Source: Octopus vulgaris | Taxonomy: Eukaryota | Length of the DNA stretch: 64,000 nt | NCBI GenBank assembly: GCA_951406725.2 | Contig: OX597816.1 | Span: 139,934,001 to 139,998,000 of the forward strand | Direction: 5' to 3' | In this document: positions 13,935 through 29,570 of the stretch, in pieces | Position numbering within the stretch: the first letter of the stretch is position 1 | Layout: each line of letters starts with the position of its first letter | Position numbers and translations under genes: made by a program | Notes under the pieces: generated by a model | Database searches by the model: none | What the model saw: the letters and a program-made list of their open reading frames with translations, nothing else | Told to the model about the DNA's origin: nothing

Positions 13935-14127
13935 AAAGTCGTGAAATTAAAAAGCTATATTTAAAGAGCTGCTGAGACAGGCAGATGTTAAAAGGAAGAT
14001 TTATTAGTGACATTTAGAAACTTCTATATAAATCAGACAATAAACAGCAGTGGTAGAAGTGATATATCAATATGTTATAATGATAAAGAAGATGACTGAT
14101 GTCAGACGATTTACTCTCTTGCATTAA
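13935..14127. repeat. Triplicated cassette, module A copy 1
   Basis: Core AAGCTATATTTAAAGAGCTGCTGAGACAGG..AAAAGGAAGATTT..ATAAATCA..ACTGATG..GATTTACTC shared with 17583-17770 and 27080-27275. Confidence 0.9.
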
Positions 14128-14189
14128 TAATAATAATAATAATAATAATAATAATAATAATAATAATAATAATAATAAATCATATTATC

Positions 14190-14820
14190 TCTAGCTGCCC
14201 AGTCCTGGCTAAGAAGGAATATATTCACAGACATGACAGAGTTGGAACTTACATACATTGGAAGCTATGCCAACATTATGGAATAACAACAGAAAAAAGA
14301 TGGTATAGGCACACACCAGAAAAGGTCACAGAAAACGAGAAAGCAACCATACTCTGGGATATGCCGATACACACAGATAGAGAAATTAAGGCCAACAGAC
14401 CAGATATAGTTGTCAGAGACCATGAAGAACAAAAAATGCTTTCTAATTGATGTATCAGTACCGGCAGATGACAACGTGTCTCTAAAAGAAATGGAGAAAC
14501 TCTCAAAATACAAAGACCTGGAAATAGAGGTAACTAGAATGTGGAATCTGAAAACAGAAACAATTCCTATCATAGTAGGTGCATTAGGCATGATAAAAAA
14601 ATATTCAGACAAATACATAACAAAAACACCAGGACTTACAAACACATATAACATACAGAAAATTGCACTACTAGGTACTGCACACATCCTACGCAGAACA
14701 CTTTCCATACAATAACCATCAGAGCATCACAACAAATCACAGCACATACCCAAGGCACACAGAGCTGCGCTCGGTAGTGAAGTGAAAGCACGCTATAAAA
14801 ATAAAAATAAAACTACTGAA
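14190..14820 (+). mobile_element. 5'-truncated R4/Dong-like LINE inserted in (TAA)n
   Basis: HWKLC..ILWD..ANRPDIVV..FLIDVSVP..KLSKYKDL..IVGALG RLE domain and 3'UTR; (TAA)n on both flanks. Confidence 0.9.
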
Positions 14821-15298
14821 TAATAATAATAATAATAATAATAATAATAATAATAATAATAATAATAATAATAATTTTTATATTTCTAACGTTTACACTC
14901 ATACTCATAGGTCACACATCTTTTTTGGGTGTGAGAGCAGTCAATTAGATCTATTTTATTTCTTAATGAGAACGTAGTTTATCGATCCGGCAAGGGTGAA
15001 TGTCAATGTTGACGCTGGCTGGATTTGAACTCAGACCATTAAGAACTGAAACAAATATTGCTAGCTATTTTGTCCGACACCCTAACGATTCTAGAAATCT
15101 ATAACGCTTGCGGTATTTTGAATTGAGAGCATAAAGAGACATAATTAAATGCTACCGGGCGTTTAATATACCGCTCTCTCATTTTTTTCCCACCCTACCA
15201 ATTATTTTTCTTTGTATATTATGTTGTATACGAAAATCTGACAGCGAAAAATTTGAAGAAATTTAGTAAACAGACGATGAGAATTTTATCCATAATTT

Positions 15299-15660
15299 TG
15301 AGTGCCGTGGCAAAGGGTACGGATTGACGTCGCCGTGGTTTCATATGATGAGCGTGTTTGACTGATGCTGACAACAATAACTGATATAAGTTGACAGGCT
15401 CTGATGTTTACTTACCTTCCGACGACTATGCTTCAATACAATTTTAAGGACAGTTGTAAATGAAAGTAATATGATTTGAACGTTTCGTTTTTAAAGATAC
15501 TTCCTGACTAAGATACTTGGCTTATCAGAAATAACAGCTTGGCTGTTATAATAATATATTTTGTCTTAATCTCATGCCTGAAAATGATAAGCTGTGGCTA
15601 AGTGGAGCTGTATCTAAAACATGGTTTATTGAATAAATACTTAGGATAAAAGGCTGCTTC
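15299..15660 (-). promoter_or_regulatory. Triplicated cassette, module B copy 1: TATA-like + Inr-like + 46-nt exon (15461-15416) + donor
   Basis: Minus strand TTTAAAA, then CTTTCATTT, then GAAG|GTAAGTAAAC; homologous to 21612-22010 and 29197-29570. Confidence 0.6.
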
Positions 15661-17582
15661 TTCGAGTTTGTAATTAACCTCGGTAAGAAAGACAGTTATT
15701 TATAAGTTAACAGCTCATTGAACAAATTTTTCATCTTGGTTTCGTTATTCGGTGATGGATATTTAAACGCATAACGCGACAAGTTATTGTGAAATATATA
15801 TATATATATATATATATATATATATATATATATATATATATATGAAAGCCTTATAGTTTTTTCTTCTGTTGAAAGATTAAAGGTGTATGATTGTATAAGA
15901 AATTATATTGGTTATGATTACGTCATATTTATACAAGATTTCAGATGTGTGTGTGTGGATGTACAAGTGTGTATATGTGTGAGCGAGTAAGTGTGTGTGC
16001 GCGTTGATGTACGAGGGTGTATATGTGTGTGAGCGAGTGTGTGTGTGTGTGTGTGTGTGTGTGTGTGTGTGTGTGTGTGTGTGTGTGTGTGTCTGTGTGT
16101 GTGTGTGTGTGTGTGTGTGTGTGTGTGTGTGAACATTGGTTATCTTGCAGAGAACATATCTTCTCACAGATTGTATCTCCTGCCTGCCTATTAAGCCATC
16201 GGTGCTATCCCAAACCGCTAGTTAATAAATGACCAATGATAACAAAGAAAACCTACACTTAAGGGAGTCTTTGAGTATTTACGAAGATCAACTGAGCAAT
16301 CTATTTCAGAGGACTTTCAACCTGAGGTCTACGGACAACGTCCAGAGCCAGCTTCTTACCACACAACCACACACACACACACACACACACACACACACAC
16401 ACACACACACACACATACACACACACACATATATATATATATATATATATATACATACATACATATATATATATATATATATATATATATATATATATGT
16501 ATGACTGTATGTACGTCGTTACGACATACAGCTAAACATTAAGCCAAGAATCTGCGTTTTGTACCATACCAGCATGATGTATTACAGACTTTGTATTCTG
16601 TCGCGAAATGTACTGCATCAACATACTCTTTGATGTGAATATTTGGCAGGAAGTTTCTTACTTGTATGTACGATATAGCTGTTCGAGTCGTGATGTTTAC
16701 AATTTTCATGTTTGCATTAAAATTTACATATCACATCGGTCATTTGTTTTGAGGTTTGCAGATTTATGCTTTCGTTGAAATGAGGATGGTTGCTTTTTTA
16801 TTTCTTCTTTTTTTAGTTGCATGATACTTCCCAACTGGGGAAAGAGCTGCAACAAACATCATTAACAACCTATTCATATAGGGTATAAGATCGGGGAGGT
16901 CTGTAAATGCTGAGCGAGCTACGAGTTCTATTGTTCCAAATAAAATATAAAGATCTAAAGAAATACGAAAAATAGTTAATAGAAAAAATCTTTATATCTC
17001 AATACAGTCGAGTTTTCAGTATAACATTTCCTACATGCAGACACACACACATACACATGTACATATATATATTTGTGTGTGAGCGAGTGTGGATGATATA
17101 TATAAACACACACATACACACACACACACACACACACACACACACACACACACACACACACACACACACACACACACACACATATATATATATATATATA
17201 TATATATATTATATACATATACAAATTTATATATATATATATATATACACACACACATGCATATATATATACATACATGCATATATATATACACACATGC
17301 ATATATATATACACATGCATACATGTCCGCTTGTGTATATAAGTATGTATGAATGTATGTGTCTGTATATATGTATGCATGTGCGTATGTTTGCATGTCT
17401 GTATAAATATACATTCGCATGTATATGATCTTTCATAATAAACTTTTAAAAAACCATGCGTCTATGTGTAGGTAAGCGAGAGAGAGAGAGAGAGAGAGAG
17501 AGAGAGAGAGAGAGAGAGAGAGAGAGAGAGAGAGAGAGAGAGAGAGAGAGAGAGACTATTTGTTCGTTGGAGGAACATCTTC

Positions 17583-17770
17583 AAATTAAAAAGCTATATT
17601 TAAAGAGCTGCTGAGACAGGCAGATGTAAAAAAGGAAGATTTCTAAGTAACATGTCGCTGTAACCTTAATATAAATCAAACAGCAGACAGAAGTTGTGGC
17701 GGCGATACATCAAAATACTGTAGTAATAGGATGGGAGACTGATGGTGGGTGATTTACTCCATTGCATTAA
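17583..17770. repeat. Triplicated cassette, module A copy 2
   Basis: Aligns by eye to 13935-14127, with an identical stretch AAATTAAAAAGCTATATTTAAAGAGCTGCTGAGACAGGCAGATGT. Confidence 0.9.
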
Positions 17771-27855: not shown

Positions 27856-28042
27856 ACTCTCTAAATTCCGGTGATGTAAAGGAATAAACAACGCTCTCAA
27901 GTGTTGGTAACAATAAAACAATTCTAAACACTCGCAGTCACAGGAGTTTCTCCTTCTCCTTCTCTCTCTCTCTCTCTCTCTCTCTCTCTCTTTCTCTCTC
28001 TCATACACACACACACACACACACACACACATACATACACAT

Positions 28043-28236
28043 CAGTGGCGTATGGTGGTTGTTGTATTGGGTGTGGCAGCACACCCAATGCCACCAAATT
28101 TCAAGCAGAGGTATAACAAAAGATTTTCATTAAGATTTGCGATTAAATTAATGAGTAAGGTAAATATTTATAATGAATTTGCCATTTTCGATGGGTGTGC
28201 AGCGCACACATAATGCACCCGGAATATACGCCCCTG
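28043..28236. mobile_element. hAT-like MITE
   Basis: Termini CAGTGGCGTAT / ATACGCCCCTG; imperfect 8-bp TSD ATACACAT / ACGCACAT. Confidence 0.6.
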
Positions 28237-28302
28237 ACGCACATTCACATAGATCGCTAGCCACTACACATTCTTTATTTTCTCTCCTTGTTTCTTTCTG
28301 TT

Positions 28303-28340
28303 TCTTTCTGTGGAAGAGCGTAGGCTCGAAACGTTAAAGA
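28303..28340 (+). ncRNA. Minimal hammerhead-like motif (CUGUGGA variant core)
   Basis: UCUUU-CUGUGGA-A-GAGC(guag)GCUC-GAAAC-GUU-AAAGA; stem I covaries relative to the 9793 and 40296 copies. Confidence 0.55.
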
Positions 28341-29196
28341 CTTTTTCACTTCCCGAGCGTTATACTAATACATCTATTTGTTATCTACACCACCTGTCTT
28401 CGTCTTTTGTTGTTTTTTTTTTGTGAATTTTCCGTATATATGTATGTATATGTGCATATATGTACACGAGGCAGACATCAATACAGGTTCCATCTTATCA
28501 AATTCACTCACAGACACTGCTCGACTCGGAGGTATAGTAGAAGACTTTTGCCCAAAAGGTGTCACACAATGGAATTAGAAATGAGGCTATGTAGTTGGAG
28601 AGCGAACTTTTTAATCAGTCAAACATGCCTGCGCATATAATAATTTTTAAATAAATTTAATAAACATGATCGTTATAATTTCTTACATAAGCACAAGGCC
28701 ATAAATTTGAAGTATTGTTTCCCAATTAACTCGATCCTAGTACTTGAATCGCACATTATTTTATCGAGTCCGAAAGGATGAGAACAAAGTTGGTATATGT
28801 CGGAATTTGAACTCAAAACGTAAAAGCTGAAGCAAATACCGAAAGGTGTTTTGTCCGACACTCAAACGGTTCTACCAAACCAGCTAATGACCTCTAACAT
28901 GGGCACGGGTCAAACACTCTGGATGAGAGTGAGGGATGCCGTTCTTATGTTAGGATTATATCGACGCGTGTTCTTCATTAATAGTCTAATGATCATGGAA
29001 TAATGAAAGAAAACCGCGATCTCGGCAGCAGCATTTTAACTCAACAAAGTTTCACAAAGAAGTTAATCTACCACTCTACCATTCCTTCCACTCCACCAAC
29101 TTTTACCATGTGTACTGTGATGTCTTGCACGAATTTTTCCATGTGTGTGACAAAAACAGCAAAACAGTGAGAATCGGAAGTTTACTCAGAAGTGTT

Positions 29197-29570
29197 TAGT
29201 GCCGTGGAAAAAGGTAAGGATTGCCGTAGTCTTGTCTTCTTATATGATAAGTTTGTTTGACTGATGCATACGACAATAGCTTATATTCGCTTCACAGGTT
29301 TACTTACATTCTGACGGCTACTCTTCAATACAATTTTATAGCCGGTTGAAAATGAAAGTATCATGGTTCGACGTTTGATATTTAAAAATACGCCCCGACT
29401 AATTTACTTGGTTTATCGTAAATGCTACTCTGGCTTCAAAATATTGAACTTTTTCTTAACCTCACGCCTGAACTTTAACTTCTTGAGGCCAAGTAGATCT
29501 GTGTGTAGGACACGGATAATATTATCTTGTTGAAGAAATACTTAAGATAACGAGTCATCCCTCAGAACTT
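29197..29570 (-). promoter_or_regulatory. Triplicated cassette, module B copy 3 (46-nt exon 29353-29308)
   Basis: TTTTAAATA, CTTTCATTT and AAT|GTAAGTAAAC; homologous flanks. Confidence 0.6.

What the first reader, a model, noticed from the sequence alone, without database searches (positions are those of the whole stretch)
13935..29570. Triplicated non-coding two-module cassette: tandem array of paralogous promoter/46-nt first-exon units
Seen: modules alternate A1 (13935), B1 (15299), A2 (17583), B2 (21612), A3 (27080), B3 (29197), separated by different TE insertions, so the duplication is old, yet the modules remain alignable. On the minus strand each B has a TATA-like TTTAAA, an Inr-like CTTTCATT, then exactly 46 nt without indels to GTAAGTAAAC (donors at 15415, 21740, 29307). 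Indels accumulate on the intron side, there is no upstream AG acceptor and there is no conserved ATG. The modules show no TIR, tRNA head or RT similarity. Inference: an array of duplicated alternative promoters/first exons feeding one downstream gene (promoter choice, loosely like clustered variable-first-exon loci), or three tandem spliced ncRNA genes.
Basis: partly seen in the sequence, partly recalled or inferred. Interest (0 to 1): 0.75.

Follow-up and report, generated by a model that had tools for sequence, protein, structure and literature searches.

The report
Triplicated non-coding unit in gene desert
Three old side-by-side copies of a short non-coding DNA unit, found nowhere else in this genome, keep splice-like signals and likely mark a small spliced non-coding gene or a set of duplicated enhancers; no protein gene that they could feed turned up in the megabase downstream, and transcription is untested.

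Summary
The triplication is real and local. Modules A and B each match three times in the 2.8-Gb genome, all in this window, so they are not a dispersed transposon. The donors and the gap-free 46 nt are confirmed. A 165-column B core is more conserved than its flanks (69% vs 45% invariant).

The promoter claim is weaker. TTTAAA sits at -34, -43 and -33, indels also occur upstream, and the promoter side is no better conserved than distal flank. Module A's invariant 24-mer straddles an acceptor-like site on the donors' strand.

An exon screen with a working control found no convincing minus-strand gene body within about 1 Mb downstream. The nearest recognisable host gene is a plus-strand tyrosinase-like cluster about 247 kb away on the other side.

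Best reading (0.40): three tandem copies of a small spliced non-coding unit, B spliced to A. Rivals: duplicated enhancers (0.25), dead relic (0.20), alternative promoters of a distant gene (0.15). Transcription could not be shown either way.

The parts
13929..14127 (-). Module A1; acceptor-like CTCAG|CAG with first exon base 13971, branch-point-like CACTAAT about 33 nt upstream, AATATA just after
15146..15711 (-). Module B1, full alignable extent
15416..15461 (-). B1 putative 46-nt first exon; donor AAG|GTAAGT at 15415 (strongest of the three)
   Evidence: transcription inferred
17568..17772 (-). Module A2; acceptor-like site, first exon base 17610
21432..22063 (-). Module B2, with a 9-nt insertion between TTTAAA and the Inr-like site
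21741..21786 (-). B2 putative 46-nt first exon; donor TAG|GTAAGT at 21740
27074..27276 (-). Module A3; acceptor-like site, first exon base 27116, AATAAA just after
27550..27773 (+). Recent inverted copy of B3 29318-29541 (promoter side plus first 36 nt of the putative exon, no donor); 4 differences in 224 nt
27774..27857 (+). Direct copy of 29521-29602 (92%) abutting the inverted copy; fold-back or template-switch-like junction
   Evidence: mechanism inferred
29044..29619 (-). Module B3, full alignable extent
29308..29353 (-). B3 putative 46-nt first exon; donor AAT|GTAAGT at 29307 (weakest)

Best explanation
An old local tandem triplication copied a short non-coding unit that likely is the start of a small spliced non-coding transcript on the minus strand, with later repeat insertions spreading the copies apart. 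SHOWN: three single-locus copies, a constrained core, conserved donor motifs in B, and an acceptor-like site inside A's invariant block. INFERRED: transcription would start at or near the TCATT initiator-like site and a 46-nt exon would splice from GTAAGT to the CAG in the A module of the same unit (introns of 1444, 4130 and 2191 nt). The RNA would then end in or after A, which has no donor and has AATATA or AATAAA followed by a U-rich run and a microsatellite. The conserved first ~125 nt of the intron and ~160 nt before the acceptor would be cis-regulatory, so the constraint may lie more on the DNA elements than on the RNA.
For: Copy number 3 for both modules (patterns 3 and 3, controls 0; no further full copy in 1,404,000 nearby bases). 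Core 114 of 165 columns invariant against 157 of 346 in flanks, Fisher p=5e-7 with post-hoc borders. K2P 0.26 in core against 0.47-0.84 in flanks; the flanks are truly homologous, since shuffled flanks align at 26% +/- 4% invariance against 43-47%. Conservation starts abruptly about 8 nt before the putative +1. B1 and B3 match the fly initiator TCA(G/T)T(T/C) quoted in PMC1904467 section 9; B2 has one mismatch. Donor scores 8.1, 6.8, 4.1 are in the top 0.02-0.9% of GT sites. A's 24-nt invariant run (permutation p=0.007) straddles an AG in the top 3-6% of AG sites, with a branch-point-like motif in A1 and A3, on the same strand as the donors. Its scores, 1.5, 3.0 and 3.0, compare with 2.4-8.2 for control arginine-kinase exons. 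No gene body downstream.
Against: The putative promoter side (47% invariant) is no better conserved than distal flank (43%), and TTTAAA spacing is broken in B2. The A acceptor is weak and is outscored by at least 6 other AGs in unit 1, at least 6 in unit 2 and 3 in unit 3. Intron-side sequence is as conserved as the exon, and no conserved RNA structure was found. The donor block read on the plus strand is TGTTTACTTA in B1 and B2, a forkhead-type site (motif recalled), which would explain invariance at +7 to +10 without splicing. Within the B core no invariant run is unusual by itself (p=0.17).
Confidence: 0.4

Rival explanations
1. A cluster of duplicated (shadow-type) enhancers in a gene desert; the splice-like motifs are coincidental overlaps with transcription-factor sites.
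For: Gene-poor setting of over 1.2 Mb. Short invariant blocks in both modules, with CATCAGTC invariant in all six modules and an AGTAAA(C/T) block upstream of it in both. The donor block is a forkhead-type consensus on the plus strand (recalled motif; 0.059 per kb in background). Duplication signatures were found in 18.3% of fly and 33.9% of mouse shadow-enhancer sets (PMC13345019 abstract and section 5).
Against: It needs a perfect donor and an acceptor-like site with a branch point to fall by chance on the same strand, in the right order, inside the most conserved blocks. Rough joint odds are well under 1 in 100 (my estimate; post hoc). B3 breaks the forkhead-like site but keeps GTAAGT.
Confidence: 0.25
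2. A dead relic: the duplicated 5' end of a lost gene or micro-ORF, whose uneven conservation reflects past selection and local gene conversion rather than present function.
For: An ATG at -11 (B2, B3) runs 19 codons to a phase-0 donor and 9 codons into A to a TGA (A2, A3). Start and stop coincide with the edges of conservation, yet each same-unit splice is broken: B1 lacks the ATG, B2 stops after 18 codons and A3 after 23. A1 and A3 are closer (K2P 0.16) than any B pair (0.26), and the 98% inverted copy shows recent local templated copying.
Against: No purifying signal on the peptide (pN 0.19 vs pS 0.11, small numbers) and no protein relative. 28 open codons arise in 10% of shuffles. All three donors and all three acceptor blocks are still intact, and the intron-side conservation is not explained.
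Confidence: 0.2
3. Alternative promoters and non-coding first exons feeding one downstream protein-coding gene, with A as an intronic enhancer.
For: Anatomy matches Drosophila hydra, which has nine tandem first exons, at least four used (PMC1904467 abstract and section 9). Unreviewed scan notes describe such arrays elsewhere in this genome (leads only).
Against: No minus-strand host-gene exon was recognised in 600 kb by Pfam (121 + 150 ORFs and 22 predicted downstream exons), nor by eye to 1 Mb. The candidates at 872 and at about -90 kb have no protein relative. The screen can miss short, fast-evolving or terminal exons: it missed 2 of the 3 C3 arginine-kinase Pfam segments. There is a 100-N gap at -294 kb.
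Confidence: 0.15

Closest known systems
Drosophila melanogaster hydra (PMC1904467; abstract and section 9 read)
   Same: Tandemly duplicated first-exon units with an initiator-like motif, interspersed with repeats
   Different: hydra has a shared downstream coding body and 5' RACE proof; here no gene body was found within about 1 Mb, TATA-like spacing is not kept, and use is unshown
Duplication-born shadow enhancers of fly and mouse (PMC13345019; abstract and section 5 read)
   Same: Local duplicates of non-coding DNA with short highly conserved blocks and homologous flanks
   Different: Here the conserved blocks also read as donor and acceptor on one strand; no activity data and no target gene are known
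Vertebrate variable-first-exon clusters (clustered protocadherins, UGT1; recalled) and chelicerate 5'-cassette Dscam (PMC4835542; search listing only)
   Same: Tandem paralogous 5' modules ending in a donor
   Different: Those cassettes are coding and join constant exons; these are non-coding, three in number, with no constant region found

Membership tests
Multiple variable first-exon locus (hydra / Pcdh / UGT1 type) | Tandem paralogous 5' modules each ending in a splice donor | tested here: met
   (motif level)
Multiple variable first-exon locus (hydra / Pcdh / UGT1 type) | Each module has its own core promoter | tested here: inconclusive
   Initiator match in 2 of 3; TTTAAA at -34/-43/-33; upstream side not more conserved than flank
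Multiple variable first-exon locus (hydra / Pcdh / UGT1 type) | Shared downstream constant exons on the same strand | tested here: not met
   None recognised within 600 kb by Pfam or 1 Mb by exon screen; control; short or divergent exons could be missed
Multiple variable first-exon locus (hydra / Pcdh / UGT1 type) | Transcripts from more than one module | not testable with these tools
   Only assembled contigs of guessed-RNA runs were available; see Tried and rejected
Dispersed transposable element | Many copies at unlinked sites | tested here: not met
   3 copies each, all in the window; the DNA search skips very common words, but the pattern searches agree
Known structured RNA (snoRNA, miRNA, snRNA) | Rfam match or conserved fold | tested here: not met
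   All 64 Rfam matches are below gathering score and none overlaps a module; weak consensus folds; the best hairpins are not shared between copies
Micropeptide gene | Intact ORF in its own unit under purifying selection | tested here: not met
   Each same-unit splice broken or shortened; pN exceeds pS; no relatives
Duplicated shadow enhancers | Sequence homology among neighbouring non-coding elements with constrained blocks | tested here: met
Duplicated shadow enhancers | Overlapping enhancer activity on one target gene | not testable with these tools
   needs chromatin and reporter data

The most novel reading that the evidence does not exclude
A combinatorial micro-locus: only a cross-unit splice (B3 to A2) restores the full 28-codon micro-ORF, so splice choice among the three units would switch between non-coding RNAs and a micropeptide. 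The recent inverted copy in unit 3 would put a 34-of-36-nt antisense match to exon 1 into its own intron, as a double-stranded, editable switch 10 nt from the donor.
Probability: 0.05. Interest if true: 0.75.

Novelty: new member of a known kind. Interest (0 to 1): 0.3.

Why it matters
If transcribed or active, it is a clean natural series of three diverged copies of one regulatory unit in a large gene desert. It would show which motifs survive tens of millions of years and would give ready targets for cap, splice and reporter tests in a group with little regulatory annotation. It does not at present support a protocadherin-like promoter-choice system, and duplicated promoters or enhancers are a known outcome of tandem duplication.

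Tried and rejected
RNA evidence: no RNA holder listed for 21400-29700 (24 runs listed, 3 hold half the words or more, none on record as RNA). Contigs of four guessed-RNA runs gave no cover on 28936-29575, which holds the B3 exon and donor (X1, X7, X8, X13). Four runs gave none on 15095-15790, which holds B1's (X1, X9, X10, X19). That is seven distinct runs, tissues unknown, contigs only, so it is no evidence either way. B2 and the A modules were never laid, and the inverted copy was not checked in DNA runs.

Protein searches: the 872 candidate frame, a 113-aa ORF at about -90 kb, the B1 frame and a 27-position profile of the B frames found nothing; such short queries are weak tests.

RNA families: rejected snoRNA, miRNA and snRNA readings. 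Spliced-leader RNA was rejected by eye (three copies, exons 67-80% alike). Six short motif terms in full text hit 1 unrelated paper. The supplements of PMC9699675 gave no occurrence of six motif terms, but the data archive was cut and the PDF was not searched, so octopus microRNA sequences were not effectively checked.

A and B as paralogues of each other: no cross-hit by profile.

A short intron to an acceptor at 15237 or 21527 is possible in B1 and B2 but has no counterpart in B3.

Literature searches listed no paper on this locus; only listings were seen except where stated.

Earlier scan notes near this place or by sequence: none.
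Full report
OBSERVATION. Self-BLAST and alignments confirm three A modules (about 200 bp, 76-86% identical) alternating with three B modules. B aligns over about 570-630 bp. The three GTAAGTAAAC donors are at 15415, 21740 and 29307 on the minus strand, each 46 gap-free nt after the A of CTTTCATT. 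Three details fail. TTTAAA lies at -34, -43 and -33. Indels occur upstream (24 of 170 columns) as well as in the intron (35 of 150). An aligned ATG exists at -11 in B2 and B3.

COPY NUMBER. The window is G000:C3:139934001-139998000 in a 2.8-Gb assembly. DNA searches with B1 and A3 each gave 3 matches of 3 candidates, all in the window. Patterns from the invariant blocks gave 3 and 3 matches, controls 0. Profiles over 1,404,000 contiguous bases found no further full copy; the extras were one E=1.9 trace for A and the two B3-derived pieces. The TE refutation is therefore not met.

CONSTRAINT AND AGE. From 8 nt before the putative +1 to about 125 nt into the putative intron, 114 of 165 ungapped columns are invariant, against 157 of 346 in the flanks (p=5e-7, borders chosen after seeing the alignment). 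The flanks are homologous, not alignment noise: 43-47% invariant against 26% +/- 4% for shuffles. K2P is 0.26 in the core and 0.47-0.84 in the flanks. With the rate of 0.0036 per My used in PMC13282606 (section 15), taken as per lineage, this gives roughly 35 My as a floor and 65-115 My from flanks; these dates are rough. Module A has a 24-nt invariant run (p=0.007). A1 and A3 are closer than any B pair, which suggests conversion or stronger constraint (inference).

ANATOMY. The putative promoter side of B is no more conserved than distal flank; conservation begins at the initiator-like site. A's invariant run straddles CTCAG|CAG on the same strand as the donors, behind a pyrimidine tract and, in A1 and A3, a branch-point-like CACTAAT. 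It is followed by AATATA or AATAAA, a U-rich run and a microsatellite, with no donor. This acceptor is in the top 3-6% of AGs but weak against cryptic sites in the inserted repeats. Joining B to A in silico gives a 28-codon frame from the -11 ATG to a TGA whose ends match the edges of conservation. Every same-unit version is broken, pN exceeds pS, and no relative was found. Rfam and folding give nothing on the modules. The donor block read on the plus strand is a forkhead-type consensus in B1 and B2 (recalled), and CATCAGTC is invariant in all six modules, so an enhancer reading stays open.

CONTEXT. I fetched 1 Mb downstream and 340 kb upstream of the window. Pfam was run on 121 minus-strand ORFs in the first 200 kb downstream and the window up to 30 kb, 150 of 215 in the next 400 kb, 150 of 202 plus-strand ORFs, 139 of 148 upstream minus-strand ORFs and 67 of 74 predicted exons. 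These gave transposon families, isolated C2H2 fingers and sub-cut-off hits. ORFs crossing 10-kb borders and plus-strand ORFs beyond about -140 kb were not scanned; from -600 kb to -1 Mb only the exon screen was run and judged by eye. As a control the screen recovered 5 arginine-kinase exons among 16 predictions in 60 kb, while missing 2 of the 3 C3 Pfam segments. It also found a plus-strand tyrosinase-like tandem cluster starting about 247 kb beyond B3. The array thus sits in a gene-poor stretch or a very large intron, which undercuts the model of promoters feeding a nearby protein gene.

EXTRA FEATURE. 27550-27773 is an inverted copy of 29318-29541 with 4 differences in 224 nt, followed by a 92% direct copy of 29521-29602. 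It carries B3's upstream side and 36 exon nt, no donor, and a changed initiator-like site. In a unit-3 pre-mRNA it would pair with exon 1 at 34 of 36 nt (inference). It was not verified in independent DNA reads.

MECHANISM AND VERDICT. Most likely (0.40): three tandem copies of a small two-exon non-coding unit, B spliced to A, with regulatory elements near both splice sites. Rivals: duplicated enhancers (0.25), dead relic of a gene start or micro-ORF (0.20), alternative promoters of a distant gene (0.15). Duplication, single-locus status and uneven conservation are shown; initiation, splicing and any function are inferred. No usable expression evidence could be obtained (see Tried and rejected). 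Closest known: Drosophila hydra (abstract and section 9 read) and duplication-born shadow enhancers (abstract and section 5 read). It fails the 'shared constant exons' test for a variable-first-exon locus. New member of a known kind; interest 0.3.

Noticed in passing
window 27550-27857: Recent inverted plus direct templated copy of B3's upstream side and 36 exon nt, 1.5 kb from its source; would form a 224-bp stem in RNA or DNA spanning both.
   Followed up: partly
L105:2381 to L117 (G000:C3:140210381-140331000, + strand): Tandem tyrosinase-like genes: two near-identical copies and exons of a third; one of five exons scanned hits Pfam Tyrosinase. The first coding exon starts at an ATG right after a very strong acceptor, implying a non-coding first exon.
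   Followed up: partly
window about 37140-39990: DNA-transposon-like element with a 543-aa ORF (Spin-doc zinc finger, DUF4371) and, by eye, terminal inverted repeats.
   Followed up: no
window 55953-60721 (-) and 52181-54128 (+): Long ORFs of a LINE-like element (zinc knuckle, endonuclease, RT, zf-RVT) facing an inverted, diverged RT copy.
   Followed up: no
window 20259-20515: Long near-perfect AT-rich palindrome (fold-back) flanked by (TA)n; it gave the weak symmetric Rfam hits at 20310-20388.
   Followed up: no
window 773-872 (-): Single-copy 100-nt exon-like stretch (AG...GTAGGT) with one open frame; no protein relative or Pfam hit.
   Followed up: partly
window 35650-36070, 49356-50450: Tandem and inverted stacks of one young short repeat family (88-97% identical copies).
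   Followed up: no
near G000:C3:139640200 (about 294 kb before the window): 100-N assembly gap; the adjoining 10-kb stretch is fully covered by repeat or duplicate hits.
   Followed up: no
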